Assembly: GCF_963921235.1 (NCBI RefSeq)
Contig: NC_086097.1
Coordinates: 127,102,001 to 127,166,000, forward strand
Origin: Mobula hypostoma
Taxonomy: Eukaryota
Direction of reading: 5' to 3'
Length of the DNA stretch: 64,000 bases
The notes beneath the pieces are model-generated. The model searched no databases. It was not told the DNA's origin and saw only the letters and a list, made by a program, of their open reading frames with translations. The translations under genes were made by a program, and so were the position numbers. Positions 33,643-61,390 of this stretch are shown piece by piece; the stretch's first letter is position 1; the number at the start of each line of letters is the position of its first letter.

Positions 33643-34998
33643 ACTGCTAGAGTCAGTTATCAAGGATGTGATAACAGCACATTTGGAAAGTGGTGAAATG
33701 ATCGGACAAAGTCAGCATGGATTTGTGAAAGGAAAATCATGTCTGACGAATCTCATAGAATTTTTTGAGGATGTAACTAGTAGAGTCGATAGAGGAGAAC
33801 CAGTGGATGTGGTATATTTGGATTTTCAAAAGGCTTTTGACAAGGTCCCAAACAGGAGATTAGTGTGCAAACTTAAAGCACACGGTATTGGGGGTAAGGT
33901 ATTGGTGTGGGTGGAGAATTGGCTAGCAGACAGGAAGCAAAGAGTGGGAATAAACGGGACCTTTTCAGAATGGCAGGCAGTGACTAGTGGGGTACCGCAA
34001 GGCTCAGTGCTGGGACCCCAGTTGTTTACAATATATATTAATGACTTGGATGAGGGAATTAAATGCAGCATCTCCAAGTTTGCGGATGACACGAAGCTGG
34101 GTGGCAGTGTTAGCTGTGAGGAGGATGCTAAGAGGATGCAGGGTGACTTGGATAGGTTGGGTGAGTGGGCAAATTCATGGCAGATGCAATTTAATGTGGA
34201 TAAATGTGAAGTTATCCACATTGGTGGCAAAAATAGGAAAACAGATTATTATCTGAATGGTGGCCGATTAGGAAAAGGGGAGGTGCAACGAGACCTGGGT
34301 GTCATTATAGACCAGTCATTGAAAGTGGGCATGCAGGTACAGCAGGCGGTGAAAAAGGCAAATGGTATGCTGGCATTTATAGCGAGAGGATTCGAGTACA
34401 GGAGCAGGGAGGTACTACTGCAGTTGTACAAGGCCTTGGTGAGACCACACCTGGAGTATTGTGTGCAGTTTTGGTCCCCTAATCTGAGGAAAGACATCCT
34501 TGCCTTCGAGGGAGTACAAAGAAGGTTCACCAGATTGATTCCTGGGATGGCAGGACTTTCATATGAAGAAAGACTGGATGAACTGGGCTTGTACTCGTTG
34601 GAATTTAGAAGATTGAGGGGGGATCTGATTGAAATATATAAGATCCTAAAGGGATTGGACAGGCTAGATGCAGGAAGATTGTTCCCGATGTTGGGGAAGT
34701 CCAGAACGAGGGGCCACAGTTTGAGGATAGAGGGGAAGCCTTTTAGGACCGAGATTAGGAAAAACTTCTTCACACAGAGAGTGGTGAATCTGTGGAATTC
34801 TCTGCCACAGGAAACAGTTGAGGCCAGTTCATTGGCTATATTTAAGAGGGAGTTAGATATGGCCCTTGTGGCTACGGGGGGTCAGGGGGTATGGAGGGAA
34901 TGCTGGGGCGGCGTTCTGAGTTGGATGATCAGCCATGATCATAATAAATGGCGGTGCAGGCTCGAAGGGCCGAATGGCCTACTCCTGCACCTATTTTC
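33643..34998 (+). mobile_element. Young 5'-truncated CR1 LINE with open RT frame (ORF 33668-35011)
   Basis: 447-aa stop-free ORF with HGFVKGKSCLTNL, YLDFQKAFDKV, GVPQGSVLGP and KFADDTKL. TSD TATAAT (33637-33642 and 34999-35004). Inserted into an older minus-strand CR1. Confidence 0.95.
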
Positions 34999-35314
34999 TA
35001 TAATGATCTGACCAGAGATGAACTGAATACTCCAAGTGTGGTCTTACCAGGATTTTTTTAAATTTTGGACTGCAATATTACCTCATGGCTCTTGAACTCA
35101 ATCCACCAACAACTGAAGACCAGCACACAAAATGCCTTCTTAAACACCCTATCAACGTGTTTCAATGTTGATGAATCTATGGATGTGGACTCCAAGATCC
35201 CACTGATCTTCCATTAAGCCTGTACTCTACCTTCAAGTTTGACCTTCCAAATGGTATAATTTGGACAAGAGATTCTGCAGGTGCTGGATCATCTGAAGTG
35301 AAGTATATCAATTC

Positions 35315-38149: not shown

Positions 38150-40510
38150 AAACTCTGGCTGGGCTGTTTCAGTCATTTCACAAAATGAGTTTGAATGGCA
38201 TTTCAAAGGTTCTGAATTGAAGCCTCCAGATAACCAACTAAGAACTTGTACTGGAGAAAATGTAACTGCTGAGGAATGACATTCATAACAGTGAAATGCA
38301 ACAATGGGCTTGTATGTGGTAAAAACAGGAGGGCCAGCATTGTGGGGTGTGATTGGCTGAGACAACCACAACTTGATTGGAGACCCATCCACCATTTGCA
38401 TACCACAACATCCCCTGCAATAGAGTCAACTGAAAGCAAATTAAGGATATCTTTGCAAACCTTTCAGGAGGGAAACGCTTCAGCAAAGTGGACTTAGCAG
38501 AGGCGTACCAACAGACGGAGATTGAAGAAGAATCCAAAGTGTTTCTCACCAGCTTCATTTCTATAATAGGTTTAATTTTGGAGTAGCATCTGCACCTGCA
38601 CTTGGCAGAAAACTCTGGCCCAGGCACTCAGTATTACCTGGATGATATCATTGTTACCAGTATAGATGACAAGTAACATCTCTAAAATCTCAAGACAGTG
38701 TTAAAAAGATCAGAAGATTATGGGTTCAGAGCATGATGCAAAAATCTGAATTCTTTAAACTACGCATCATTTACTGTGGTCACACCATTGACGTATGAGG
38801 ATTACACAAGTGTGCTGAGTAAGTTCAAGCAGTGGTGGATGCACCAAGGCCAAAGAACTTGTCAGAGTTGCGGTCCTTTTTAGGATTTTTCAACTGCTAT
38901 AACAGATGCCTGCCAAACTTGGCTACTGTGCTGAACCCTTTGAACTCATTACCACAGAGCAGGAAGAAATGACAATGGACAAAGCAGTGTGAGGTTTTCC
39001 AAAAGGCAAAGGAAGTGCTGATGTTAGACACTGTACTCACACATTACAATCCACATTATCAAGTGAAGCTTGCCTGTGATGCCTTGCCTTATGCTATAGG
39101 TGCAGTCATGTCACATTATGAGTAATGGAAGTAAACACCCCATAACCTCTGCATCATATTCTCTTAGCTCTGCCAAGAAAATTAATGCACAGATTGATAG
39201 AGAGGCCTTGAGTCTAATTTGGGGTGTAAAATATTTCAACCAGTACATGTATGGGAGAGAGTGTACCCTCATTTCTGATCATCCACCACTAGTGTCCATT
39301 TTCAATCCACAGAAGGGTGTTCCACTAACAGCAGCAGGACAAATGAAGAGATGAGTTCTCTTTCTTAGAGGACACAATTACAAGCTGAAATTCAAGAGGA
39401 TAACCAATCACTGAATGCTGATCGATTGTCCTGTTCACTCTTGGAAAAGGAAATACCTGAAAAATTTACAAAAGAGGGCACTCTTCTTGAAGTGGTCTCC
39501 CCAATTCAAATCAGAAGTCTCTCTATTACGGCAGAGATGATCCAAAGGGAAGTCAGAAAAGACCCCACATTGTCTCAGGTCTACGTGGCCACCCAAAATA
39601 GCTGGAATGTGCAACAGAAGTTCCAGTTCCTCCATTTTTATCAGTGCTGGGATGAAATTGCCTTTGGTGGAATTTGCCTTCTGTGGGTTTAAGAGTTGTT
39701 GTACCATACAAGTTGAGAGCTAAAGTTTTGGAGGAGCTATATGCTGGTCTTCTAGGTGTGGTCAAAGTGGAAGTATTGGCTCGAGGCTTAGTCTAATGGC
39801 CTGGTATATATCAGCAGGTTGGACAGCTCATCATGCACTATTTGGGAGGCCAGCATGTCCAGAAGACGCCAACAGCAGCACTTCTCCATCCCTAGGAATG
39901 GCCTGCATTCCATAACAGAAGATGCATGTGGATTTTGCTGGGCACCAGTTTCTTGGTAGTAGTGGATGCAGCTACAAAGTGGCTGGAGGTGTTCCCAACA
40001 ATCTCCATTACATCCTTGCACACTGTAGATATGTTGAGCAGCCTCTTCTCAAGGACTGGTATTCCAGAACACTTAGTCAGTGACAATGAATCACAGTTCG
40101 TAGTGGAACAGTTTCAGTCATTCCTGAAAATGAATGGAATAAGACATATTACATCTGCACTGTACCGCCCAGCTTCAAATAGCTTGGCAGAAAATGTATC
40201 CAGAGTCTGAAGAACACACTGTGAGCAATGTTAGCAGAACACACTACACTGTTACTGACTCAGAAGCTCACCAATTTCCTCCTTGCATATCGCATGCAGC
40301 CCACTCCACAACCAAAACTCAGCAGCTGTGCTGTTCCTGTGTCATCCCTAGCGCTCTCGCTTGCATCTCCTCAAAGCCAAATTCAGAGGGAGATTGCAAG
40401 ACAAGCAGCTGAGAAAAACTGAGGGCTTCTCAGACGGGGAGGTTTGATGTTTCACTCCTGGGCAAGCAGTCCTGTCGAGCAGCTACAGGGATGACTGAAA
40501 GTGGGTACTT
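38150..40510 (+). mobile_element. Second Gypsy pol remnant (different family, no LTRs seen)
   Basis: SKVDLAEAYQQ, YYLDDIIV (~38632), LACDA, AQIDREALSLIWGVKYFNQY, VVDAATKWLEV and VSDNESQF. Confidence 0.85.
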
Positions 40511-43647: not shown

Positions 43648-43771
43648 CTGAAAGAGATACGAAAGGCGTTTTAGAAACCCAAGACTTACTTTTATTCCCC
43701 TTTTTAAAAAAAAGACTTGCATGTCTTTGAATTGCACTACTTGCTGACTTCCTCTCTCTTGATTTTTACAA

Positions 43772-43821
43772 GAGGTAACTTTTGCGCTGGATATGATTTA
43801 AAGGAATTTGCTGAAGCAGCC
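43772..43821 (+). pseudogene. Enoyl-CoA hydratase pseudogene, exon remnant with first oxyanion-hole motif
   Basis: GNFCAGYDLKEFAEAA after a pyrimidine tract. Acceptor appears as TACAA|GA (inferred AG>AA). The 3' part is replaced by a retroposon-tail-like sequence. Confidence 0.8.
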
Positions 43822-44139
43822 TTGAGGGGCTGGATGGCCTCCTCCTGTTTCTATGAACATAAAGTAAACATCATTTTGTGGCTACAACTGGAAAATGCAT
43901 AAATGTAGCAGGAGGTATTTGCAGTTTATTCAGACGTGTTGAATGGAGATGTAAAGAAGACAATAAATAATAATTGGGTTCCGACAGACGCTACTGCACC
44001 AAGCTCAGTCTTTGTTAAGTGCTCCTGAATAGTTAGCTAAACACTTGAGCTGGGCATGAGACAAGCCTCCTTTGTCTTTCCTCAGCTGGTGAAAGGCCTT
44101 GCTGAGCATTTAAAGCACTTTTTAAAACAAATTCTGTTT

Positions 44140-46510
44140 ATGACCACAAGACATACGAGCAGAATTAGACCATTTGGCCCATTGAGTCTGCTCCGCCATT
44201 CTATCATGGCTGATTTATTATCCCTCTCAATCCCATTCTATTGCCTTCTCCCCATAACCTTTGATGCCCTGACTAATCAAGAACCTATCAGCCTTTGCTT
44301 TAAGTATACTAAATGACATTGTCTCCACATCTGGCTGTGGCAATGAATTCCACAATGTAATGGACATCCCTCTTTCCTGAGGTTGTGTCCACTGGTCCTA
44401 GACTCACACACTAAAGGAAACACACATCCCACATTCACTCTATCTCAGTTTTCAATATTTGATAGGTTTCAATGAGATCCCCCTCATTCTTCTAAACTCT
44501 AGCGAGTGCAGGCCCAGACTAGCAAATGATTTGTTAACCCTTTCATTCCTGGAAACATTCTCATAAACCACCTCCAATGCTGGCACATCTTTTCTGAGTT
44601 AAAGGACCCAAAATTGTTCACTATATTCCAAATACAGTCTGAACGATGCCTCATAAATGCTATCTTTGCATTTGTCTACCTTACCACTGACTCATTCTGC
44701 AAGTTAACCTTTAGGGAATCCTGCACCTCTGATTTTTGAATTTTCTCTGTTCATAAAATAGTCTACTCCTTTATTCCTTCTACCAACGTGCATGACCATA
44801 CACTTCCCTACATAATATTCCATCTGCCACTTCTTCGCTAATCTTCTGTCCTTGCTAGTGTATTCCAGTAATACCATGGGCTTTTATCTTGTTAAGCAGT
44901 CTCATGTGTGGCAGCTTCTTAAAGGCCTTCTGAAAATCCAGGTAAACAATATCCACTCGCTCTCCTTTTTCTATCCTGCTGGCTATTTCCTCAAAGAATT
45001 CCAACAGATTTGTCAGGCAAGATTTCCTCTTAAGAACACCATGCTGACCTTGACCTATTTTGTCAGCTGCCTCCAAGTACCCCAAAACCATCTTTAATAA
45101 TGGACTTCAGTATCTTCCCAATTATCGAAGTCCGGCTAACTGGCCTATAATTTCCTTTCTTCTGCTTCCCTCACATCTTAAAAAGAGTGGAGTGCTATTT
45201 TCAATTTTTCAGTCCTCTGGAAACATTCCAGAATCTAGTGATTCTTGAAAGATCATTACTAATGCCTCCCACAATCTCTTCAATTACCCCTTTCAGAACA
45301 CAGGGGTGTGATCCATCTGGTCCAGGTGACTTGTCTAATTCCACACCTTTCAGCCTCCTAAGCACCTTCTCCTTGGTCATAGCGATTACACTCCCTTCTG
45401 CCCCCTGACACTCTTCAATTTCTGGCATGCTGCTGGTGTGTTCCACTGTGAAGACTGACACAAAATACATATTAAGTTTGTCTGCCATTTCTTTATCCCC
45501 CATTACTACCTCTCCAGAAGCATTTTCCAGTAGTACGAAAACCATTCTCACCTTTTACTCTGTATGTATCTGAAAAAGCTTTTGCTATCTTCTTTTATAC
45601 TATTGGCTAGCTTACTTTTGTATTCCATCTTTACCTTCTTAATGACTTTTTATTTGTTTTCTGCTGGTTTTTAAAAGCTTCCCAATCCTCTAACTTCCCA
45701 CTAATTTTTGCTATATTTATATGCCCTCTTTTTTGCTTATATGTTGTCTTTGACTTCCATCGTCAGCCACTATTGCCTCACCTTCCTTTATAATACTTCT
45801 TCATCTTTGGGATGTATCTATCCTCCACTTTCCAAATTACCCACCAGAAACTCCAGCCATTGCTGTTCTAGTATCGTCCCTTATAATGTCCCCTTCCAAT
45901 CAACTTTGGCCAGCTCCACTCTCATGCCACTGTAATTCCCTTTACTCCACTGTAATACTGGTACCTTCTCCTTCTCCCCCATTATCCCCCATTACCTTCT
46001 CCCTCTCAACTTCAGAGTGATCACTGTCTCCTAAGGGTTCCTTTACCATAAGCTCCCTAATCAAATCCTGTTCATTACACAACATCCAATCCAGAATTGC
46101 TTTCCCCCTAGTGGGCTCAACCACAAGCTGCTCTAAAAAGCCAAGTTGTAGACATTCTATAAATTCTTTCTCTTGGAATCCAGCAGGAACCTGACTTTCC
46201 CAATCTACCTGCATATTGAAATCCCCCATAACTCTCCTAACATTGCCCTTTTTACATGCTTTTCTGTCTCCCATTGTAATTTGTATCCCACATCCTTCCT
46301 ACTAGTTAGAGGCCTGTATATTCTGTTACTTCCATCAGTGTCTCTTTACCCTTGCAGTTTCTTAACCCTACCCACAAGGATCCTGCACCTTCCGATCCTA
46401 CAGGTCACCTCTTTCTGAGGGTTTGAATTCATTTTTTACCAACAGAGCCGCCCCACCCTGTCTGTTTACCTGCCTGTCCTTTTGATGCAAGTAGTATCTT
46501 TGGATGTTCA
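44140..46510 (-). mobile_element. CR1 LINE with endonuclease and RT remnants, internal deletion
   Basis: VMGDFNMQVDW...VVEPTRGKAILD, KSPGPDG and VYLDFQKAF. Confidence 0.9.
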
Positions 46511-47494
46511 AAGGTTCCATTTAATATCTGAAAATGTATACACTATACAACCTGAAATCCTCCCCCCCCACACACATAAGCAGCAGAAAAACACCAGCCC
46601 TCCCTCCTCTCCTCACTTGTTCCAGCAGAAAGCATCAGCACCCCCACCACCCACCATGCAAGCAATTGCAAAGCTCCCAAAACGACCATCACGTCGATCC
46701 ATCAAGAACCATTGTCCATCCTAACAGTTGGACATCCCACAGGTGCGCGCTCTCTCTCTCTCTCTCTCTAATGAAGGAGAGAAGGGTATCAGTCCTTTCA
46801 CAGTGGGAGGGGAGGCCAACAGCTCGCTGTTTCGGTGTTACAGTCTGCAGCGTCACCTTACTTCCAGCTCCCCTGACTCAAGGAGCAAACTCCCTTCATT
46901 GACAGACAGACAGACACACACACACACACACACACACAGAAGCCTCCGACAGCCGAACTCGATGTTCCGATCTCCTGCGTCACTTCAGTCAGTGACACCG
47001 GTGAGAAATCGAGTCGCCCACAGGACGCACAAGGCTGTGCCCCAAAGGTGCTTGTCTTCCAGCCACTCTTGGAGATATCAAGAATGCTGGACTGCTCAGC
47101 GAGTTTCAAGAGCAGGAGCCCACCATCGTGAAGAACTACAGTTTGAATGCAGCTGTACATTAAAGACTCCGACAGGGCCCCAGCCATCTCGAAAAGGAAA
47201 GAAGAGACATCAAAGATACAAATTTAATGTTTTGCAGATGAACTGGAAGAAGTCACCCGATGTTAAGCTCCCAGTTATGATCTTCTTTCAGCCATGACTC
47301 AGTGATGCCGACAGTGACATACCTACCAATCTCTAACTGCCCTACAGTATCGTCCAACTTATTCGGTATACTGTGTACATTCAGTCTTGTATTCCTCATC
47401 CTTTTCAATGTTACACTTCAGTTCATCCCACTGATTGCAATTTTTCCTTAACATCTGCCTGTCCTTCCTCTCAGTTTCACTACAAACAGTATAT

Positions 47495-48012
47495 CAGAAT
47501 TAGGTTTAATATCACTAAGATATGTCATGAAATTCGTTAACTTTGTGGCAGCAGTACATTGCAATACATGATAAATATAGGAAAAAAAATTAATTACGGT
47601 AAGTAATAAAAAAGAGTAGTGAGGTAGTGTTTATGGGTTCAATGTCCATCTAGGAATTGGATGTCGGGGGGAAGAAGCTGTTCCTGAATCGCTGAGTGTG
47701 TGCCTTCAGGCTTCTGTGCCTCCTTCCTGACGGTAACAATGAGAAGAGGGCATGTCCTGGGTGATGGGGGTCCTTAATAATGGACGCCACATTGCTGAGG
47801 CACCGCTCCTTGAAGGTGTCTTGGATACTATGGAGGCTAGTACTCATGGTAGAGCTGACTAATTTTACAACTTTCTGCAAATTACTTTCATCTTGTGCAG
47901 TTGCGCCCCTCCCGCAAACCTGACAGTGATGCAGCCTGTCAGAATGTTCTCCATGGTACATCTGCAGAAGCTTTTGAGTGTTTTAGGTGACAAACCAAAT
48001 CTCCTCAAACTT
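47495..48012 (-). mobile_element. Rex1/Babar 3' fragment
   Basis: ASIIKDPHHPGHALFSLLPSGRRHRSLKAHTQRFRNSFFP. Confidence 0.85.
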
Positions 48013-48077
48013 CTCAAAAAAATAGTTGATATACATGTATATAAATGGAAGAAGAACCTAGTGCTTTTCTGGGGTAT

Positions 48078-48336
48078 ATGACCAGTGGCGTAGTGGCATC
48101 AGTGACGGACTTCGGGATGAAGGGTCCCGAATTCGAATCCAGCCGGCTCCCCTGCACGCTTCCCATCCATGCTGGGCTATGAGCTGGTGATCTCTTTGGA
48201 AACTCACCTGGCAGAAGGCAATGACAAACCACTGCTGTAAATTGCCTTGTACATGGTTCCTCACTGCGTCAGAGAGGCGTGGAGGGAAATCGTCCGCTAA
48301 CCAGAGAAACTCCGGATGCGACGTTCCTTTCCTTTT
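48078..48336 (+). mobile_element. tRNA-derived SINE with RTE-type body
   Basis: A-box TGGCGTAGTGG, B-box GAATTCGAATCC, GAAGGCAATGACAAACCAC motif and (TTTCC)n tail. Confidence 0.65.
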
Positions 48337-48339
48337 ATG

Positions 48340-48826
48340 ACGAAGAAACTCTTCTCGGGTTTCCAGCTGGGTACAGGTATTGATTTCAACTGATGTTTTG
48401 ATGACAAAACTCTGCCATTTTCATCAGGGATGATGCCTGAGTATGTCTATACCTCTATCATCCTTCTCTCCTGATTGGTTACTCCTCATCCAGTCAGGTT
48501 TCCACCATTCTACCTTGTTTACAATCAAATTCCAGTTCTTACTTAGAGACTTTAGTCATCGTTAAAATTATCTTTCTCTACTTTTACTTCAATGGCTTCC
48601 TTCACCAGACGGTCCTAAAAGTCATTGGCATAGCGCAGTAGTTTTGTGCAGTCGAAGTCAATTCTATGGCTATTGCAAATGCAATATTCTGCTACCACCG
48701 ATTTCTCTGGGTAATCCAAATGGATACAACTCCTGTGCTCCTTGATGCGGGTTTCCGTCGTGCACCTTGTCTGGCCGATATACATTTACGGGATTCCCTG
48801 TGAATGCGGAGCAGCGTATATCGGCC
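48340..48826 (-). mobile_element. Penelope-like element 3' end with GIY-YIG endonuclease remnant and inverted 5' tip
   Basis: Minus: YIGQTRCTTETRIKEHRSCI...RLVKEAIEVK...NFN. Plus 48784-48825: IYGIPCECGAAYIG. CTGATGA core at 48427-48421. Confidence 0.85.
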
Positions 48827-49889
48827 TGATCATCTGCAAATTTAGGATTCCAATCTTTTATCTCAAGTTTTAAAAGGGAATGTATTATCAGGCTTAGATT
48901 GCAGACAAAAGAACATGAAATCTGAAAACTGAAGTTTTGCTATTTTTAATGTGGGGTTCTTTATTATTTGCCCTTAGTATGTGGACATTATTGGCAAGGC
49001 CAGCATTTGTTGATGGTTCTTAACTGCCTCCTGAACTTTGCTTCCCCCGGGATTAATAAAGTATGACTATGACTATGTTTGCTGGGCCAGAAAAGCACAG
49101 AAAACAGTCAACCACGTTGGTGACTCTGGAGTTACAGATAAACTAGAGCAGGTAAGGAGAGCAGGTATCCTTCCTGAAGGACATTTGTAAGACAGGCAAT
49201 CACCATTACAGAGTCCAGCTTTGTGACACAGCTAGGTGATACAGCTGTTGGATGTGCTGAGTTGCAGCTTCAGTAACCCAAGTTCAGCCTGATTTCCAGT
49301 GCTACATGGAATCTGCACGTTCTCCCTCTGACCATATGGGTTTCCCTTGGGTCCTCTGACTTCCCTCTACATCTCAAACACACAGGTTAATTCACTATGG
49401 TAGTGTTCCTTCTGTGTAGGTGGCATTGGAATCTGAGAGATTCGCTATCACTTCAAGAAATCAAGAATATACAAGTAAGGATGTGCTGATGTTGTTTATA
49501 AGGTGTTAATCAGATTGCATTTGAAATATTGTGAGCATTTTTGAGCACTGTGTTGAAGCAAAGAGGTTCTGGTGCTGGGCGGGTCCAGAGGAGATTCACA
49601 GTGATCCTGAGAATGAAAGGCTTAATGTATGAAGAGCATTTGATGACTCTGGGCATGTAATTGATGGAGTTCAGAAGGAGGAAGGGAAACTTCATTCAAA
49701 CTTGCCAAATCTTACAAGATAGCTGATATGGGAAGGATATTTTGAATTTCAAGGCAAATTTATTATCCAAGTACATAGATATCACTATATACAACCCAGA
49801 GAGTCATTTTCTTGCAGGGGCATACTCAATAAACCCATAATAGAATAATAACCATAATAGAATCAATGAAAGACCGCACCAACCATTCT

Positions 49890-51600
49890 TGAGGTAGTAT
49901 ATACCCAAAATATATGGTCTTACTCTCTAAGGGAATTTCACATTTAAAGATGTCTCGTAGGGCATTATGTATCCCACTCCAATAATCTTTGATAACAGGG
50001 CATTCCAGAAAATATGATAATGGTTTTCATTTTGATTTCCACAATTTCTCCAGCAAGCAGGGAGGTTACTATCACGATGGGATTTCTGAGAGGGTGTAAT
50101 AAAATATCTTATCAAGTTTTTCCATCTGAACTCCCTCCATTTCTGTGAACTGGTACACTCCCATTGATACCTGCATATTATTGTCCATTCTTCCTCAAAA
50201 ATAATTATCCCTCCTTCCTTCTCCCATTTTGTTTTAATGTATGAAGTCGAATGTTTTAAGATTTGACAAATCATTATACATGCTTGAAATTATTCTACTA
50301 CTGTTATCTAAATTATATGCTTTTCTAAATAGCTCTATCAATCATGTACTTGCCTTGGTTACATTTTTAACCGTCCTATTAACATACTGTCACATCTGTA
50401 AATACTGATAAAACTCTTGTTTTTCTAATAAGTGTTTCTCTTCAAGCATTTCAAAACTGAACAGTGTTCCTTCTTTCATTATATTGCAAATAGTTGTTAT
50501 TCCTTTAGCTGTCTGATCCTTAAATCTAGCATCCGAGTCATATGCACACCATTTAAGAATTGCAGTATCTCCCTCTAGTTTATATTCTTTTATAATAGTT
50601 TTCCATATTTTAAGAGTCCATTTCACCCACGGGTTAGCAATAGTATTTATGTACCTTTGTAGGTTGTTATCAGCCAAAATAACCTGTATGGGAATGGGAA
50701 GTATCCCCTCCTCAATGTTTTTCCATTGAGCGTCACATGATGGGTTGCACCAGCATATCACAGCTCTCAACTGTGCTGCAAAATAATAATCTCTAAGAGA
50801 AGGTAGGCCCCATCCCCCCTTTTCCTTGGCTAATTGCAAAGTTTTGAGATGAACTCTAGGCCTTTGCCATATATATCTTGATAACATTTTGTTCCGTTCA
50901 TTGAATTGATTTTGATTAATCTCTATTGGTAAGGTCTGAAAGAGATATAATAGTCTGGGCAGTATATTCATTTTAATAGATTCAATCCTTGAACTGAGAC
51001 TAAAAAAAGGAATTAGGTTACATCTTGTTATATCTTCCTTAATTTTTTTTATATATAGGCTGATAATTCCATTCTGATAATTTTGCCAAATCGTTTGGCA
51101 TAGTGATGCCCAAATATTTGACGGACTCTGTTTGCCATGCCCAGAGATATCTACTTTCAATTTCTCTTGGTGGGCTATAGTTATATGAAAGTAATTGGGT
51201 TTTATCTATGTTGATCTTGTATCCTGATAATTGACCATATTGTTCAAAGGATTGCATCAATTTAGGTAAAAAGTATGTTGGTTGCCCTAGATAGATCAAA
51301 ATGTCATCCGCGTAACAGGCCAATGTATGCTCTGTCCCTTTAATAGTAATTCCCCTGATATCTTCATTTTGTCTGATGTATTGAGCTAATGGTTCCAGAT
51401 ATAATGCGAAGAGTAGCGGTGACCATGCACAACCCTGTCTCGTGCCCCTTTCTAGAATAAAACTATTTGATTTTAATCCTAGCAGTAGGGTTGTCATATA
51501 GTGCCTGTATAGTTTTAATAATTGTGTCATGGAAACCAAATCTATGTAAAACTCTGTAAAGAAAATTCCAATTAACCTAATCAAATGCCTTTTCAGCATT
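49890..51600 (-). mobile_element. L1/Tx1-clade LINE ORF2 fragment
   Basis: [56 protein letters not shown] and zinc knuckle CWRNCG...HYHIFW. Confidence 0.92.
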
Positions 51601-51637
51601 ATCTATTTATTCTATGGTTACTTTTCCTTTCTGTTAG

Positions 51638-51780
51638 CCTATCCCGGATACAGTTTTCAAAACCAGTGATAACTGCAGTGAGTGGCTACGCTGAAGCAGG
51701 AGGATTAGCAATCTTGTTGTTGCCTGACTTCTGAGTAATGGGGAGAAGTGCTATCATGGAAGTCTTCTGCAGGTGATTTG
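51638..51780 (+). pseudogene. Enoyl-CoA hydratase pseudogene exon
   Basis: LSRIQFSKPVITAVSGYAEAGGLAILLLPDF*VMGRSAIMEVFCR*FG. Acceptor CTTTTCCTTTCTGTTAG and donor TTG|GTACTT. TGA at 51732 and 51774. Confidence 0.92.
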
Positions 51781-51871
51781 GTACTTGTTTTTCACTGAGG
51801 AAAAATGTTTAACTTGTAGCATTTGCAGGATGTACAGGAGCTTTATAGAATGCTCCTTGCATTTGTCCCAG

Positions 51872-52003
51872 GTGTCCCACTGATTGATGGAGGCACGGTA
51901 AGATTATCCAGGGCACTAGATCTTATTCTGACCAAACACCCCATCAGTGCACAAGAAGCCTACGAATTTAGCTTTGCCACTCGAGTTGTCCCAGTTGGTT
52001 AAG
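51872..52003 (+). pseudogene. Enoyl-CoA hydratase pseudogene exon
   Basis: After a 91-bp GT-AG intron: (G)VPLIDGGTVRLSRALDLILTKHPISAQEAYEFSFATRVVPVG*. TAA at 52000 and donor AAG|GTTTGT. Confidence 0.95.
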
Positions 52004-52689
52004 GTTTGTGCAGCCCTTGATTTTAATTGCTCTTGGCTAAGTTACATGACTGCATTTCATAAATCACAGTGTTTCACAGAACATATAGAACTATATAGCA
52101 CAGTACAAGCCTTTCAGCTCACTAACAGCCGAACTGCTAACCTACCTCACAATCAATCCAATCCTTCCTATAACCCTTTCAAATTGAATTTGCAATTACA
52201 AAAATAAACAGTATTAGATGCAAGTTAAATTATATTGAGAAGGAGAAATATATATGAATTAAAATCAATTACTTGACTCAGAGTAATGGCTAGAATGGGA
52301 GCTGAAGATACTTCTTACTTGGGGTCTCAGAGATTTGGAACTCACCACTTCAAGGAGCGCTGAAGGCAGACTCCTCGATCACATTTAAAGCAGAACTGTG
52401 GTTGAGTACTTCTGTCACCTACGAGGTTGCTGACCCGTGCCTGGATGAAAGTAGCTCCGACAACTCCCAGGGAGCTCGACATCATCCTCTGCAAAGCGGC
52501 ACACCTGGGTTCACCACCCAAACATTTATTCCTTTCACCACCGGCACACAGTGGCTGCAGTGTCTGCCATTTACAGAATGCACCACATTGTGATAACACT
52601 CCCAAACTCACATCCTCTGCTACCAAAAGGACAGGGGCAGCAGGTGCACGGCAACATCACCACCTGTAGAATTACTCAGTGTCACTGCT

Positions 52690-53135
52690 GCTGCCACCTG
52701 TTATGCCGCAGGCATTTAGGCAACAGTGAAGGTTCTCCATCTCTCTCTGTCCTATTGCGCCTCAGGTGTGGTTCAGGGTCCTCATTTCTGCCTCTATGAT
52801 ATGGTGTCAAGTTGTCTTTGGTCTCCTGCATTTCCTCCACCCTTCAGGCGTCCAATGAAGTGCTGCATTGATGATGGAATTGGCCTCATCATGTGCCCAA
52901 TCCATCTTCAATGTTTCCTCATGATGATTGTGGCCATGTCCCCTTGGTGACACTGAAGGATTAGGGCGTGGCTGGAGATTTCTCTTGGCCAGAGAATCTG
53001 GAGGATCGTCCAAAGGCTTATGGTGTGGAATGATAGCAATCTCGTTCTCTGTCATGTGCCAGCATTCTGACGTGAACAAGACTGTGGACGGGACACAGCT
53101 CTGGTACAGCTTCACCTTGGTGTGGACGTTGTACT
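52690..53135 (-). mobile_element. RTE-clade LINE 3' fragment
   Basis: TKVKLYQSCVPSTVLFTSECW...ALHWTPEGWRKCRRPKTT. Confidence 0.75.
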
Positions 53136-54194
53136 TGGTTGATCCCCATTGATCCAAAGACCTTTCTAACTTTGCTGTGTCTGCACTGGATGTCATCCTC
53201 TTTCCCACCAACCTGCCAAATGATACTGCCCAGGTTGGCGAATCTGCCAGTGCTGGGTAAGTCAACTCTATATGCCTTGATGGGAGGAGGACATTCTACA
53301 GCTCAATGTTGCACGCAATCCAGTTTGGAAATATATTGCTCATCCTTCAGTATCACGCGATCTAAATCCCAGAACTCCCTCCCAAGAAGAACACCTTCAC
53401 TGGGAGTGCAGCAGTTCAAAAAGGTGACCCAACAAGACCTTCCCAAGGGCAATTATCGATGGCAAATAGATGCCATCCTTGCCAGGGTTGCCCAGATCCC
53501 AAAAAAGCAATGTTAAAAAAAACTAGAGACTGATGTTGGCAGGAGTGAATATTTCACTGAACGGTCAAGGTGACCTCTTGGGCCATGTCCAATTTTCATT
53601 GTTGGAATATCGGGTACAGTTCAGTGCATCAGTCTTTAGGAAGAGGATTAGGGCTCTGTTGAGTGAACCGATTTACCAGAATAATTGCAACAATGAGGAA
53701 TTGGGAAGCCAGAATGAGAAGCTCCCTAAAGGAGGAAATGTAAAGAGAAAATGTGGTAAGTTTGCTTAAAGGCATGATGAAACAAAAGAGGCAGACAAGC
53801 CTCTAATGGCTATAGGTCAAAAGCTGGATGACAGAGACAGAAGATAATTGACAAACATCCAAGGAATGATGTTAGAGTTTTTATACTGGAATGTGTGGTT
53901 AGAATTTGGTATGCAAAATTTGATAGGATAGTGAATAGAGATTCCAAAGGGCTTTCTTCATGAAAATTGATATACCTTGCAGCAGAAAAGAATACCAATG
54001 CCGTGGGGAAAGAGAAGGACTTGTGGACTAATTAACCATTGATAGAATGAGAGAAATAAAATTTGTTGGGCCAAATGGCTGTTTCTGTTGCTGTTCGATT
54101 CTATTTTTGCACTCCGGCTAAACTTAAAGGACCGTGTTTATCATATTCATTTTGAACACAGCAGACTGCTTTTCCAGTGCTCCCATGAAATTAG

Positions 54195-55080
54195 CTGGGC
54201 CCTGTTTCCGACACTCCCTCTAAACTCTCTGGGCCCTGTTTCCGACATTCCCTCTAAACTCTCTGGGCCCTGTTTCCGACACTCCCTCTAAACTCACTGG
54301 GCCCTGTTTCCAACACTCCCTCTAAACTCACTGGGCCCTGTTTCCGACACTCCCTCTAAACTCACTGGGGCCTGTCTCACACACGCTGTAAACTCACTGG
54401 GCCCTGTTTCCGACACTCTCTCTAAACTCACTGGGGCCTGTCTCACACTCACAGCCTCTAAACTCACTGGGGCCTGTCTCACACGCACTGCCTATAAACT
54501 CACTGGGGTCTGTCTCACACTCACAGCCTCTAAACTCACTGGGGTCTGCCTCACACACACTGCCTATAAACTCACTGGGACCTCTCTCACACACACTCTA
54601 AACTCACTGAGGTCTGTCTCACACACACTGTCTGTAAACTCACTGGAGTCTGTCGCACACTCACGGCCTCTAAACTCACTGTGGCCTGTCTCTCACACAC
54701 ACTGCCTCTAAACTCACTGGGGTCTGTCTCACACTCACAGCCTCTAAACTCACTGTGGCCTGTCTGTCACACTCACTGCCTCTAAACTCACTGGGGTCTG
54801 TCTCACACTCACGGCCTCTAAACTCACTGTGGCCTGTCTCTCACACACACTGCCTCTAAACTCACTGGGGTCTGTCTCACACTCACGGCCTCTAAACACA
54901 CTGGGGCCTGCCTCACACACACACTGCCTCTAAACTCACTGTGGCCTGTCTCACACACACTCTCTAACTCACTGCAGCCTGTCTCACACACACTGCCTCT
55001 AAACTCAATGGGGTCTGCCTCACACACACTGCCTCTAAACTCACGGGGGTCTGTCTCACACTCACGGCCTCTAAGCTCAC
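54195..55080. repeat. Minisatellite, 33-38 bp units
   Basis: About 25 copies anchored on CTCTAAACTCACTG. The unit changes from GGCCCTGTTTCCGACACTCC to GGGTCTGTCTCACACTCACGGC along the array. Confidence 0.95.
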
Positions 55081-56185
55081 CAAACACAGTAAAAGTGAGG
55101 TTATATTTCTGTGAGTCTGCAGACATCCCACCCTGCAAAAACTCATTTCAGGGAGGTCTCAACTGGAAGTCTCAACCTCATAGCAGTCTGTGTCAATGAA
55201 TTTGTTAATCTTGCAAAACATCAGATTCACAAGTGTTTTGTGAGGCAGCTGACTTCTGAATTCTGTCTTAATGTGATGCACCATGCTGAATGCCCTTTCT
55301 ACATCACAATTGGAATTTGGCAGCACCAAAAGCAGCTTCATCAACTGGATGCTCTACCTGCCACTCTCTTGCTTCATCTGTCACTCACTCTCTCTGTCTG
55401 TCTGTCTCTCTCTCTCCCTCTTGTTCGCTCGCTCTCAAAAAAATTGATTTCTAGGATATTGTATATAATTTGCGGGTGTCAGGGAGTCGCTAACAATATG
55501 CGGGAGACTCCCGGAACTGCCAGGAGAGGTGGAATGTCTGAGTCTGTTGGGGTCACATACTCCCGGTGTAACCTCCTGTATATCGTTGAGACCCAACATA
55601 GATTGGGAGACCACTTTGCAGACCACCTATGCTTCGTCTGCCAGAACAAGTGAGATCTCCCAGTGGCTACCCATTTTAATTCCACTTCCCATTCTCATTC
55701 TGATATGTCCATCCATGGCCTCCTCCACTGTCATGGTGAGGCGACAGTCAGGTTGGAGAAACAACACGTTATATTTCATTTGTGTAGCCGCCAACCTGAC
55801 AGATGAACACTGAATACTCAAACTTCCGGTAATGCCCCCCATTCCCCCCCCCCACTGTTCTCCATCCCTTTTCCCTCCCTCACCTTATCTCTTTGTCCAC
55901 CCATCGCCTCCCTCTGGTGCTCCTCCCCCCTTTTTCTTGCTTCCATGGCCTTCTGCCTTTTTCACCAATCACCTTCCCAGCTCTTTACTTCATCCCTCTT
56001 CCTCCATGTTTCATCTGGTGTTTCACCTGGTGTTTCTCTCTTCCCTCCCCTCACCTTTTAAATCTAATCCTTAGCCTTTTCCCTCCAGTCCTGCTGAAGG
56101 GTTTCAGCCCAAAACATCGACTGTACTTTTTTTCCACAGATGCTGCCTGGCCTGCTGAGTTCCTCCAGCATTTTGTGTGTGTTAC
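55081..56185 (+). mobile_element. Penelope-like element 3' end (GIY-YIG remnant plus terminal repeat), interrupted by hAT
   Basis: CES|VGVTYSRCNLLYIVETQHRLGDHFADHL. Degenerate hammerhead CAGTC CTGCTGA...AAAAC ATC GACTG at ~56086-56123. Confidence 0.8.
55120..55540 (-). mobile_element. hAT deletion derivative retaining the C-terminal dimerisation domain
   Basis: TIR CAGACATCCCACC / GGTGGAATGTCTG and perfect 6-bp TSD AGTCTG (55114-55119 and 55541-55546). LLVLPNSNCDVERAFSMVHHIKTEFRSQL. Confidence 0.88.
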
Positions 56186-56189
56186 CTTG

Positions 56190-56762
56190 TTTTTTTGATT
56201 GACCGTAAACAAACAAATCAGGTCAGACATCTAGTGCAAAGAATGGACTGCCTTCATACTATGCTTTAAACAATTGTATTCTCCAAATCTTCAATTTTAT
56301 TGTATCATTCAAGATGATTTTTGATACCTTCAAATTCTTCATTATTCCTAACTTGTTGAAGTAGTGAAATTGTTGCATTTTCTCTCCTGGCCGTTTCTGA
56401 CATCACCACTGAATGTTTGAAACCACAGTGAGCAAAGCAGTTCGAGATTGTCCTACTGATCTCTTGTCAAATATCAGTGACAAAAATCAATGCTCTTTGA
56501 ACACAAGCACACGCAACTGACACTTTTTAAAAACTGATAGCTCTAAGCACAGTGTAGTGTCTAATGGCCACACATATGCACATGACTGGCACCAGTTAGA
56601 AACTGTTCAGGAACAGTCCCCCGCCCCGGTTAAGAAGCATAGTGTCCCAAATAAACAACTGATATCCTGGCTATTTCTCAGTTTAGTTTCTGTTCTTTAA
56701 GAGTTGTCCCAAAGTAATGGTTGCCCCTATTAGACGATAGTCCAATTTACTGGAATCCACTG
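56190..56762 (-). mobile_element. Tigger/pogo-like non-autonomous transposon, same family as 1-664
   Basis: Terminal GGAATCCACTG and an internal match to positions 1-90 in reverse orientation. Confidence 0.6.
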
Positions 56763-57164
56763 TTGCATTATCATCCAGTAATCTGGAACAGCTGCTGATT
56801 CGGTCACAGCAAAGTCACAAGTTTGCTGAATGATTGGACCTTTATCGTAGCAGTGTTCAGGACGAAAGGTGTGGTGTGGTTTGCCTCTTGCCGCAATCGT
56901 GGGTCCTGGGTTTTGTAGCACAGCCACATTGCACTGTGTTGGCTTTTGATGGGGAGGGAGGCAGCTTATGGCCTTACAGCTGGTCCTGCTTTCCTCCTCT
57001 CCCTCTCTCCCTCCACCTCCACCCCCACCCCCACCCCCACGTGAAGCAGCTGATCAGCCTGGTGCCCATGTTGACCTAGCATCAGGGGTCCAGACTCGCT
57101 GGAGGGGGTGGTCACTAGCGGTCATGACAAGTCTCCACAGACCCCGCTGTTGAAGGTATCATAC

Positions 57165-57317
57165 ATATTCTGTCTGCTGCTTCGCTTCCCCTTGGTTAGC
57201 CGCAGCTCTCTAAGTGTTTGCTGGGCCTGTTCCAGCTGCTGATGTTCATTAGCTGACAGCAGTCAGTAACGGCTCCGCAGCTGTTGGATCCATCACCGAT
57301 GTAGAATATCCTCGGCA
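57165..57317 (-). pseudogene. Candidate decayed exon in unique GC-rich DNA
   Basis: CTTGTGCATTTTCAG| acceptor. One frame reads AEDILHR*WIQQLRSRY*LLSANEHQQLEQAQQTLRELRLTKGKRSSRQN, with both stops TGA. Donor and true frame are uncertain. Confidence 0.4.
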
Positions 57318-57494
57318 CTGAAAATGCACAAGGCTGTGACAGGGTGTGCTGCAATTTGGGGGCAATGAGGTAATGTATATGTGCCCAGTTTTATAATCAG
57401 TTGAAATGGAATACCTGGATTGACGTAGATGGCAAGTCTGAAGTATCTGTCTTATTCACTGATATACGTATGTGCGTGTGCATATATGGACATG

Positions 57495-57953
57495 GACACA
57501 CACACACACACGCACGCTCAAAACCTACATACACACAAAACCTACACACACACACACAAAACCTACACACAAACACACCTACAAACAGACACAAAAAGCT
57601 ACACACACACAAAAATCCTACACGCACACACAAAACCTACACACACACAAAACCCACACACACACACACACGCGCACGCTCAAAACCTACACACACACAC
57701 ACACACGCTCAAAACCTACACACAGACAGACACACACACCTACAGACACAAAAAGCTACACACACACAAAAATCCTACACGCACACATACGCTCAAAACC
57801 TACATACACACAAAACCTACACACACACATACGCTCAAAACCTACATACACACAAAACCTACACACACACGCTCAAAACCTACACACAGACACACACACC
57901 TACAGACACAAAAAGCTACACACACACAAAAATCCTATACGCACACACAAAAC

Positions 57954-57988
<35 letters not shown>

Positions 57989-58011
57989 CAAAACCTACAT
58001 ACACACAAAAC

Positions 58012-58049
<38 letters not shown>

Positions 58050-58185
58050 CCTACACACAGACAGACACACACACCTACAAACAGACACAAAAAGCTACAC
58101 ACACACACAAAAATCCTATACGCACACACATACCTACAAACACACACGCAAAACCTACACACACACACAAACCTACTCACACAAG
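57495..58185. repeat. Compound CA-rich satellite with higher-order structure
   Basis: (CA)n tracts punctuated by AAAACCTA, AAAAAGCTA and AAAAATCCTA in a recurring order. Confidence 0.95.
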
Positions 58186-58509
58186 CCTGAAACAGTTTGG
58201 GTTCATTTTTCCCATGATGTAACACATCAGGAATATTCGGAAATGATGGCATTGTTTATATTATTTGGACTTAGCAATTTTAAATCTGGCAAAAAAAATG
58301 TCTCTGTGTGAATAAAAGGTTACTGGTGTGCAACTATCACAGGAGTTGTGGGTTCAAGTCCTTCTCCAGGGACTTGAGTGCAAAACTCAAAGCTGACACT
58401 CCAGTGCTTTTTATTTGGATTAGATGTTAAACTCCAGAGCTCCATCTGCACAGTGTCATGGATACAAACATTTCCACAGTACTGCTTTGAAGAGAAATCC
58501 TTCATGATG

Positions 58510-59175
58510 TCCAGGCAGCATCTATGGAAAATAGTACAGTCGACGTTTTGGGTTGAGACCCTTCGGCAGGACTGGAGAAAAAAAGATAAGTAGATTTAAA
58601 AGGTGGGAGAAGAGGAGAGAAAAACGCAAGGTGATAGGTGAAACTGGGAGGGAGAGGGATGAAGTAAAGAGCTGGGAAGTTGATTGGTGTAGGAGATACA
58701 GGTCTGGAGAAGGGAGGAATCTCATAGAAGAGGACAGAAGGCCCTGGAGGAAAGAAAAGGGGGAGGAGCACCAGAACGAGGTGATGGGTGGGCAAGGAGA
58801 TAAGGTGGAGAGGGAAAAAGGGATGGGGAATAGTGAAGGTGAGGGGAGGGGGGGGACATTGCCGGAAGTTTGAGTGATCAATGTTCATGCCATCAAGTTG
58901 GAGGCTACCTAGATGGAATATAAGGGTTGGAGACTAACTCCTTCACCAATCAACTTCCCACCTATTTACTTCATCCCTTCCCCCCCCCCCTCAGTTTCAG
59001 CTATTGCCTTGTGTTTTTCTCTCCTCTTCTCCCACCTTTTAAATCTACTCCTCAGCTTTTTTTCTCCAGTCCTGCCAAAGGGTTTCGGTCTGAAACATCA
59101 ACTGCACTCTTTTCCGTAGATGCGGCCTGGCCTGCTGTTCCCCCAGCACTTTGTGTGGGTTGCTTGGATTTCCTG
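58510..59175. mobile_element. Inverted pair of Penelope terminal-repeat fragments
   Basis: ~58510-58930 on minus and ~58935-59175 on plus both match 55780-56185. Each carries a degenerate hammerhead core. Confidence 0.75.
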
Positions 59176-60068
59176 CAGAATTTTGCTAGTTTTTTCCTTC
59201 ATGGTGTCATAATCTTTTATGACCATGAAGATCTTTTATTATCTTTTCTTTAATGTCATTTCTGCATTGGGCAACACTCCCACAGCTGACTATCTGATGA
59301 GTATTCCATCGATCTGGGATCTTGCTGGGCATAAATTAACACTGTTGTACCAGAGTTCCTACTTCCAGTAAGAGACATTCTATATCTCTATCTGTTTGCT
59401 AACGTGATCAGCAAACCCAGCTCCACACAAATGTTGAGTTTGGGAAATTGCTATGTAAGGGTTTAGCAGAATTGTGGTTTCATTGTGACCGGAGTTCCCC
59501 AGGCAGAGCAGTGGTGATGGAGGGTGGGGTACATGTGGGTGTGTCGAATAGCTTAAGAGGTGCAAGCTTTATTCCCCCCCTCCATATATGGAAGGTGAAA
59601 AGTGAAGCCAGGTGGGTGGGTAGGGTTAAGGGTCAGAGAAGAAGGAATTTGATAGGAGAGGAGAGTGGACAATTGGAGAAAGGGAGGTAGAGGGGACCCA
59701 GGGGGAAGTAAATGCAGTCAGCTGGATGGGCTGAAATGCAAGAAGTATCAGGAAAAAGGGTGATAAGCTGAGAGAACAGATCAATACACGTATCTGTGAT
59801 TTTGTCACCATTGCAGAGACTTGGTTGTCACAAAGGCAGGAACGACTGCTGCATGTTCTGGGATTTAGGCGCTTCAAAAGTGACACGACTGGAGGTAAAA
59901 TTAGTGGAGGACTGGTGACGTTAATCAGAAATAGTATCACATCTACAGAAAGGGAGAATTTCATGGAGTGTTCATCTCCCGAGTTAGTGTGGGTGGAAGG
60001 CAGAAACAGGAAGGGAGCAATCACTTAACTGGAAGTATTCCATAGACCACTCAGTAACAGTAGAGACA

Positions 60069-60218
60069 TCTTCCTTCTCAGTCCTGAAGAAGGGTCTTGG
60101 CCTGAAATGTCGACTGTACTCTTTTCCATAGATGCTGCCTGGCCTGCTGAGTTGCTCCAGCATTTTGTCTGTGTTGCACAGTGGCATTCCAGCACCTACA
60201 GATTTCCTTGTGTATGTG
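60069..60218 (+). mobile_element. 150-bp Penelope terminal fragment with hammerhead-like core
   Basis: TSD AGAGACA (60062-60068 and 60219-60225). CAGTC CTGAAGA AGGGTCTTGGCCT GAAAT GTC GACTG at 60079-60116. Confidence 0.75.
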
Positions 60219-60347
60219 AGAGACACTGAGGAGCACATTGAGAGGCAGATTTCTGAAAGGTGCAAAAATAACATCATTGTTGGTCAAGGACGACTTCAAC
60301 ATCCCTGATATGGATTAGTGTGAAAGGTTCAGATGGGGCAGAATCTA

Positions 60348-61390
60348 GGCCTCTGTACCTCCCTCTGCAACTGGATCCTCGACTTCCTAACAGGAAGACC
60401 ACAATCTGTGCGGATTGGTAATAACATCTCCTCCTCACTGACAATCAACATTGGTGCGCCTCAGGGGTGTGTGCTTAGCCCACTGCTCTGCTCTCTCTAT
60501 ACCCATCTATAAATTTGCTGACGATACAACCATTGTTGGTAAAATCTCAGCTGGTGACAAGAGGGTGTAGAGGAGTGAGATATGCCAACAATTGGAGTGG
60601 TGTTGCAGCAACAACCTGGCACACAATGTCAGTAAGACAAAAGAACTGATTGTGGACTTCAGGAAGGGTAAGATGAAGGAACACATACCAATCCTCATAG
60701 AGGGATCAGAAGTGGAGCAAGTGAGTAGTTTCAGGTTCCTGGGTGTCAAGATCTCTGAGGATCTAACCTGGTCCCAACATATTGATGCAGCTACATAGAA
60801 GGCAAGGCAGCAGCTATACTTTATTAGGAGTTTGAAGAGATTTGGCATGTCAACAAATACACTCAAAAACTTCTATAGATGTACAGTGGAGAGCTTTCTG
60901 ACAGGCTGCATCACTTGTCTGGTAATGGAGTCTACTGCACAGGACCGAAAGGAGCTGCAGAGGGTTGTAAATCTAGTCGGCTCCATCTTGGGTACTAGCT
61001 TACAAAGTACCCAGGACATCTTCAGGGAGCCGTCTCTCAGAAAGGCAGCATTCATTATTAAGGACCTCCAGCACCCAGGCCATGCCCTTTTCTCACCGTT
61101 ACCCTCAGGTAGGAGGTACTGAAGCCTGAAGGCACACACTCAGTGATTCAGGAACAGCTTCTTCCCCTCTACCATCCAATTCCAAAATGGCCATTGAATT
61201 CGTGAATACTACCTCACTTTTTAAACATATTTCTGTTTTTGCATATTTTAATCTAGTCATTATATGTATACTGTAATTGATTGATTTATTTTCTTATTTA
61301 TTTTTTGTTCTATATCATGTATTGCATTGAACTGCTACTGCTAAGTTAACAAATTTCATGACACGTGCTGGTGATAATAAAGCTAATCAT
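60348..61390 (+). mobile_element. Rex1/Babar LINE 3' portion
   Basis: [30 protein letters not shown] and HPGHALFSPLPSGRRY. Confidence 0.9.

What the first reader, a model, noticed from the sequence alone, without database searches (positions are those of the whole stretch)
43772..52003. Intron-containing enoyl-CoA hydratase pseudogene missed by the ORF track (possible lineage-specific gene loss)
Seen in sequence: three colinear plus-strand exons with GT-AG boundaries, encoding GNFCAGYDLKE, SKPVITAVSGYAEAGGL and FCR*FGVPLIDGGTVRL-SRALDLILT, with three nonsense codons (51732, 51774, 52000). Established knowledge: these are crotonase-fold motifs. FCRR(F/W)GVPLIDGGTVRL marks a subfamily shared by bacteria, invertebrates and fishes, which normally has a catalytic Glu in GGLEL and a PxLIGL segment after TVRL. 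Inference: the Glu is replaced by Ala, six codons are deleted, both TGAs are CGA decay, and the first acceptor is damaged. Retained introns argue for death in situ or after segmental duplication, not retroposition.
Basis: partly seen in the sequence, partly recalled or inferred. Interest (0 to 1): 0.75.

Follow-up and report, generated by a model that had tools for sequence, protein, structure and literature searches.

The report
Dead fat-breakdown gene in cartilaginous fishes
This is the decayed remnant of a little-studied fat-breakdown enzyme gene that still works in several sharks, skates, bony fishes, frogs and reptiles but died long ago in the common ancestor of at least four related species, an ordinary kind of gene loss that seems not to have been reported for this gene.

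Summary
Three exon remnants of the vertebrate gene zgc:101569 (NCBI "EchA19-like", PRK08259/EchA5 subfamily) are present.

New results:
- Contigs of four coded organisms all carry the 18-base deletion, the TAA at 52000 and the Glu-to-Ala change, so assembly error is excluded and the gene died before these organisms split. The two TGAs are younger and are absent in two of the four.
- Each run laid one contig on the exons at 80% likeness or more, with no second copy. That favours outright loss over a duplicate, but no genome was available.
- The 3' half of the first exon is replaced by a retroposon tail.
- The subfamily has Cys where hydratases carry the second catalytic Glu (332 of 340). Its mycobacterial member EchA5 is reported as a monofunctional isomerase (PMC12680188), so the lost enzyme was probably an enoyl-CoA isomerase.

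Intact orthologues occur in seven cartilaginous-fish genera. The host is probably a ray, but placement is not statistically resolved.

The parts
43770..43771 (+). Damaged splice acceptor (AA in place of AG) of the first remnant, working label exon 3
   Evidence: Sequence. Exon start inferred from isoform junctions in P0099, P0113 and P0043
43772..43812 (+). 5' half of exon 3 (GNFCAGYDLKE, first oxyanion-hole loop)
   Evidence: 28.4 bits with the exon profile; tblastn E 7e-07 with the white-shark protein
43811..43854 (+). CR1-like retroposon 3' end that replaces the 3' half of exon 3
   Evidence: 21.6 bits with a profile built from 6 such tails elsewhere in the window; 0 of 100 shuffles reached it. 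The name CR1 is recalled, from the RT ORF at 33620-35011
43864..51635 (+). Intron 3 remnant, about 7.8 kb, largely retroelement debris, with a minus-strand RT element ending at about 51600
   Evidence: ORFs; RVT_1 hit E 3e-17; high repeat depth up to about 51600
51638..51780 (+). Exon 4 remnant (SKPVI...AGGL...FCR)
   Evidence: 67.6 bits; PRK08259 E 7e-14; donor GT at 51781
51708..51710 (+). Catalytic Glu (Glu144 position of rat hydratase) replaced by Ala; shared by all four organisms
   Evidence: role of Glu144 from PMC13126182 passages
51732..51734 (+). TGA stop, organisms A and B only; C and D read CGA
   Evidence: table 3
51774..51776 (+). TGA stop, organisms A and B only; C and D read CAA
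   Evidence: table 3
51781..51871 (+). Intron 4, 91 bases, GT-AG, homologous to the intron of an intact skate-type gene
   Evidence: Read-through of genomic ORF P0005 matches it (1 of 1000 shuffles); the 8 other fragments tested gave 92-941 of 1000
51872..52003 (+). Exon 5 remnant (GVPLIDGGTVRL...RVVP), donor GT at 52004
   Evidence: 65.7 bits; PRK08259 E 1e-12
51906..51907 (+). Site of the 18-base in-frame deletion; shared by all four organisms
   Evidence: No insertion listed for any run; the contig of C spans 476 letters = 488 minus its 12 listed gaps, all near 51632-51646
52000..52002 (+). TAA stop at a conserved Gln codon; shared by all four organisms
   Evidence: No T>C change at all in B; all five T>C changes of C and of D are placed elsewhere

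Best explanation
The locus is the in-place corpse of the single-copy vertebrate gene zgc:101569, a crotonase-fold enzyme of the PRK08259/EchA5 subfamily. Shown: it cannot make an active protein, it evolves without selection, and it was already dead in the ancestor of four sampled organisms. Inferred: it is the only copy in these genomes (unitary pseudogene). Inferred: the host is a ray, most likely near the sawfish lineage. Inferred: the living enzyme was an auxiliary 3-cis to 2-trans enoyl-CoA isomerase of unsaturated fatty-acid oxidation, using one Glu, and could be lost because ECI1 and ECI2 do the same job (their role is recalled, and they were not sought here). Order of decay: the 18-base deletion, the TAA, the Glu loss and about a dozen missense changes came first; the two TGAs arose later by CpG decay in the A/B line; the exon 4 acceptor eroded separately in B and in C/D. 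The date of the retroposon insertion in exon 3 is not known.
For: Identity: PRK08259 is the best family for 3 of 4 pieces scanned. The closest solved structures are EchA5 and three like it (E 1e-74 to 1e-77 for the sawfish protein; next chain 4e-36). Death: 13 of 66 columns invariant in 16 vertebrate orthologues are changed in the window; remnant identity to orthologues is 74-83 of 103, against 92-98 of 106 between chondrichthyan pairs, the two skates aside. Shared lesions in 4 of 4 runs laid. Neutral drift: the 19 exon differences between A and C fall 7:5:7 on codon positions (p 0.81 against one third), and exons differ no less than introns (19 of 262 against 9 of 188, p 0.33). Single copy: flat depth and one contig over 51664-52100 in each of 4 runs at an 80% cut-off, although records under 90% alike were laid in the adjacent repeat; the chondrichthyan rows show no sign of a second gene. 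Isomerase: Cys at the second Glu position in 332 of 340 relatives, aligned to Glu in chain 3trr; two Glu are said to mark hydratases (PMC5834635, passages); EchA5 is listed as monofunctional isomerase (PMC12680188, passages).
Against: No genome is held, so an intact copy elsewhere was not searched directly. The read-laying tool's sensitivity for an intact copy 10-15% diverged is unknown. Synteny was not shown: no BMP6 piece was found in the window. Placement among cartilaginous fishes is unresolved: the AU test rejects none of 11 positions, and the white-shark branch is only 0.3 log units worse than the sawfish branch. The activity of the vertebrate enzyme has not been measured in any paper found; the isomerase result is second-hand and concerns a bacterial protein. 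Five rows of the difference table were not shown.
Confidence: 0.75

Rival explanations
1. Duplicate pseudogene: a segmental copy of part of the gene (three exons) that decayed while an intact copy survives elsewhere in the genome.
For: The upstream exon and the last exon(s) are missing from 43.7 kb upstream and 12 kb downstream, as a partial duplication would give. No neighbour gene anchors the locus.
Against: One contig only on the exons in 4 of 4 runs at 80% likeness. No protein named from stingrays or electric rays among the 120 rows, whose top 7 rows are the other cartilaginous fishes. Exons are readily lost by deletion in old pseudogenes, and the introns here are long.
Confidence: 0.17
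2. Real loss, but the lost enzyme was a true enoyl-CoA hydratase or had another CoA-ester activity, as the database names say.
For: All sources name it hydratase or dehydratase. The invariant FCRR and DGG motifs could supply a second catalytic group.
Against: The names are automatic and vary (EchA19, sidH, carnitinyl-CoA dehydratase, echA8). The second Glu is absent in 340 of 340. [quoted passage not shown]
Confidence: 0.3
3. Assembly or consensus error in an otherwise intact gene.
For: The best run, X1, may be the sample that the window came from, so it alone is not independent.
Against: X1's contig matches 51548-52100 with 0 differences; three other organisms from other studies share the deletion, the TAA and the Glu loss.
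Confidence: 0.01
4. Processed copy, or a recent transfer or contamination from bacteria.
For: The subfamily is close to bacterial proteins.
Against: Introns sit where vertebrate isoforms and genomic fragments show junctions; intron 4 is homologous to a skate-type intron; the best identities are to cartilaginous fishes.
Confidence: 0.01

Closest known systems
Vertebrate zgc:101569 / NCBI 'enoyl-CoA hydratase EchA19(-like)' (sawfish P0126, white shark P0007, skates P0214 and P0215, elephant shark P0128)
   Same: Sequence of the three remnants (75-83 of 103 residues), exon junctions, homologous intron 4
   Different: Here broken by stops, an 18-base deletion, loss of the Glu, splice damage and a retroposon tail; the other exons were not found
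Mycobacterial EchA5 and relatives (PDB 3qka, 4z0m, 3r9q, 4qfe; NCBIfam PRK08259)
   Same: AGGxE, FCRR(F/W)G and VPLIDGGT motifs; one Glu, with Cys at the second position
   Different: Bacterial, intact and intronless; reported as monofunctional isomerase and as dispensable in culture and in mice (PMC12680188, PMC3220763, passages)
Canonical enoyl-CoA hydratase ECHS1 (Glu144 + Glu164)
   Same: Crotonase fold and first Glu
   Different: Far more distant (E about 1e-27 against 1e-77); the subfamily lacks the Glu164 equivalent
Unitary pseudogenes of vertebrates, as a class (e.g. Aqp10 loss in Cetartiodactyla, bioRxiv 10.64898/2026.09.20.752922, search listing only)
   Same: Intron-bearing remnant, lesions shared across related species, neutral drift
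   Different: A different gene and lineage; absence of a living copy is supported here only by read laying

Membership tests
PRK08259 / EchA5 crotonase subfamily | Best profile match is PRK08259, with FCRR(F/W)GVPLIDGGT | tested here: met
   E 1e-12 and 7e-14; next families 1e-3 and 2e-6. The fragments cannot reach the whole-protein cut-off of 273 bits
Canonical two-glutamate enoyl-CoA hydratase | Second catalytic Glu, 20 residues after the first | tested here: not met
   Cys 332, Ser 7, Asn 1 of 340 relatives; no Glu
Monofunctional enoyl-CoA isomerase | Isomerase activity without hydration | not testable with these tools
   Inferred from EchA5 as reported second-hand in PMC12680188
Unitary pseudogene | Inactivating lesions that are real and fixed across species | tested here: met
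   Deletion, TAA and Glu loss in 4 of 4 organisms laid
Unitary pseudogene | Neutral evolution | tested here: met
   Codon positions 7:5:7; exon rate not below intron rate; only 19 changes, so power is modest
Unitary pseudogene | No intact paralogue in the genome | tested here: inconclusive
   One contig per run at 80% likeness; no genome to search
Unitary pseudogene | Ancestral syntenic position | tested here: inconclusive
   Gene models fused to BMP6 in Anolis and platypus suggest the neighbour; no BMP6 hit in the window; the queries lack the front part of BMP6
Processed pseudogene | Introns absent | tested here: not met
   Two introns retained; intron 4 homologous to a skate-type intron

The most novel reading that the evidence does not exclude
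Jawed vertebrates inherited a third, bacterial-type enoyl-CoA isomerase next to BMP6. It ends in a peroxisome-type signal in tetrapods and carp-like fishes but not in cartilaginous fishes, and has been lost repeatedly and unnoticed: in this ray clade, and perhaps also in carpet sharks, catsharks, snakes, birds, crocodilians and all mammals except monotremes. This locus would be a dated molecular fossil of one such loss.
Probability: 0.35. Interest if true: 0.6.

Novelty: new member of a known kind. Interest (0 to 1): 0.38.

Why it matters
Gene loss with a pseudogene left behind is common, so the kind of event is not new. The value is specific. It documents a shared, old loss of a well-conserved metabolic gene in a group of cartilaginous fishes, and its nested lesions (shared by four organisms, then by pairs) can serve as clade markers. 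It also draws attention to an uncharacterised vertebrate enzyme that databases call a hydratase but that probably isomerises unsaturated fatty acyl-CoAs. If the gaps in birds and live-bearing mammals are real, it is a fatty-acid enzyme that humans lack, and the skate and zebrafish genes make its function testable.

Tried and rejected
- Whole-genome search: no genome is held.
- RNA: no RNA holder was listed for 51400-52100. This is no evidence on expression; no RNA run was laid.
- A possible last exon at 58432-58488 (tblastn E 1.3; 5.0 bits) scored 2.5 bits with a full last-exon profile, and 1 of 20 shuffles scored higher: rejected as unproven.
- Upstream exon and 3' half of exon 3: best 0.6 and 1.3 bits, not found.
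- BMP6 or any other host gene: none by Pfam in 50001-64000, the only part scanned that way; no tblastn hit with BMP6 parts in the whole window.
- Search for shorter fragments of the sawfish protein: none of the 120 listed rows was named from a vertebrate, so it did not test absence in other sharks and rays.
- Tree placement: the remnant groups with sawfish at 70.8/55 support; AU rejects none of 11 placements (5000 replicates, fewer than the program advises). The first two runs of this test failed on a file-name clash.
- Protein atlas: only generic crotonase clusters.
- Literature: no paper on loss of this gene in searches; one paper lists zgc:101569 (PMC8919083). Most subscription journals are not covered.
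- Earlier scan notes: two unrelated microbial loci, nothing by words or place.

Full report
Observation. The three motifs are on the + strand at 43774, 51657 and 51871, with stops at 51732, 51774 and 52000. Exon profiles from 26 vertebrate orthologues score the remnants 28.4, 67.6 and 65.7 bits, against at most 2.4 bits for the next hits. A full-length profile finds only these three places above 3 bits in the window. The exon numbers 3, 4 and 5 are working labels, taken from junctions seen in isoforms and genomic fragments.

Identity. NCBIfam PRK08259 is the best family for 3 of 4 pieces, and the nearest solved structures are mycobacterial EchA5 and three like it. The vertebrate gene is zgc:101569, named EchA19-like by NCBI. 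Intact copies were found in Carcharodon, Heptranchias, Pristiophorus, Pristis, Amblyraja, Leucoraja and Callorhinchus (the top 7 of 120 rows, with cluster members). They also occur in bony fishes, lungfish, coelacanth, amphibians, turtles, lizards, tuatara and monotremes. Gene models in Anolis and platypus fuse it to BMP6, which suggests that the two are neighbours. No BMP6 piece was found in the window, so synteny is untested.

Homology in exon 3 stops at about 43812. The next 44 bases match the 3' tails of retroelements found six times elsewhere in the window (21.6 bits, 0 of 100 shuffles). The exon's second half was not found. The acceptor reads AA. The upstream exon and the last exon(s) were not found; they are deleted or lie outside the window. 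Intron 4 is a true ancestral intron: the read-through of an unnamed genomic fragment whose exon is 50 of 50 identical to the skates matches it (1 of 1000 shuffles), whereas 8 other fragments do not.

Are the lesions real and how old? Twenty-four runs were listed and four, from four coded organisms and four studies, were laid on 51400-52100. Each gave one contig at flat depth over the exons. A matched with 0 differences and may be the source sample. B had 6 differences and 1 gap, C and D 33 each. None had an insertion at the deletion site, a T>C at 52000 or a C>A at 51709, so the deletion, the TAA and the Glu loss are shared by all four. C and D read CGA at 51732 and CAA at 51774, so both TGAs are later CpG decay in the A/B line. 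The exon 4 acceptor is changed in B and deleted in C and D. By hand count against the chondrichthyan alignment, 14 point lesions plus the deletion are shared, against 4 codons changed only in the A line and 7 only in the C/D line. The gene was therefore dead roughly twice as long before that split as since. Thirty of C's 33 differences are placed in the table, and five rows were not shown. The 19 exon differences between A and C fall 7:5:7 on codon positions, and exons differ no less than introns (19 of 262 against 9 of 188), as expected without selection.

Loss or duplicate? No genome is held. No second contig was laid on the exons in any run at 80% likeness, although records under 90% alike were laid in the adjoining repeat. 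A living copy from a duplication at the time of death should be about 85-90% alike (inferred from 20 changes in 103 residues against sawfish) and would probably have shown. That makes loss of the only copy likely, about 0.8, but not proven.

Host. The remnant is closest to sawfish (83 of 103; white shark 80; others 74-78) and shares two residues with sawfish alone among the seven chondrichthyan genera aligned. The tree joins them weakly (70.8/55) and the AU test rejects none of 11 placements. A ray near the sawfish lineage is the best guess. No stingray, electric ray, carpet shark, catshark, snake, bird, crocodilian, marsupial or placental name appears among the 120 rows or the 120. Both lists are truncated, and I had no control that these proteomes are in the database, so this is a lead only.

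What the enzyme did. Rat hydratase needs Glu144 and Glu164 (PMC13126182, passages), and two Glu are described as the mark of hydratases against monofunctional isomerases (PMC5834635, passages). Of 362 fetched proteins, 340 match the subfamily pattern; all have the first Glu, none has the second, and 332 have Cys there. The alignment to chain 3trr puts that Cys on a Glu. A review lists EchA5 as a monofunctional isomerase acting on 3-cis-octenoyl-CoA, citing Srivastava et al. 2015, which I did not see (PMC12680188, passages). EchA5 is dispensable in culture and in mice (PMC3220763, passages). Zebrafish zgc:101569 is listed as a potential isomerase/hydratase with the peroxisomal signal SKL (PMC8919083, one passage and one supplement row). 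Of 12 lobe-finned and tetrapod orthologues checked, 11 end in -KL; 0 of 7 chondrichthyan ones do, and 4 of 11 ray-finned ones do. The likeliest reading is an auxiliary isomerase for unsaturated fatty acids, redundant with ECI1 and ECI2 (recalled), whose loss was tolerated. I put isomerase at about 0.6 to 0.7.

Novelty and verdict. It is a real, old, shared pseudogene of an uncharacterised enzyme: a new member of a known kind, interest 0.38.

Noticed in passing
P0126 (Pristis protein), exon 3/4 junction: The sawfish model has two residues (WY) where the other 15 vertebrate orthologues aligned have one, which may reflect a one-base error or lesion rescued by the gene predictor. If the junction is phase 0, the window's exon 4 would also lack two bases at its start; not verified.
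   Followed up: no
P0053, P0055, P0159, P0173: Anolis and platypus gene models fuse this enzyme to BMP6, and two bony-fish enzyme proteins carry the UniRef name BMP6: an annotation trap that can hide the gene.
   Followed up: partly
C-termini of orthologues: A peroxisome-type ending (-SKL, -AKL, -GKL) occurs in tetrapods, coelacanth and carp-like fishes but not in cartilaginous fishes, sturgeon or bowfin, which suggests shifts in targeting.
   Followed up: partly
window 54200-55100: Long tandem-like repeat region with units of about 30-35 bases.
   Followed up: no
window 55180-55450, - strand: hAT transposase dimerisation-domain remnant (Pfam E 0.05).
   Followed up: no
window 57430-58200: About 750 bases of degenerate CA-rich repeat giving spurious ORFs in all three + frames.
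   Followed up: no
window 25400-26700, 28300-28650 and 39370-40210: ORF fragments that look like decayed LTR retrotransposon gag/pol/integrase (recognised from memory, not scanned).
   Followed up: no
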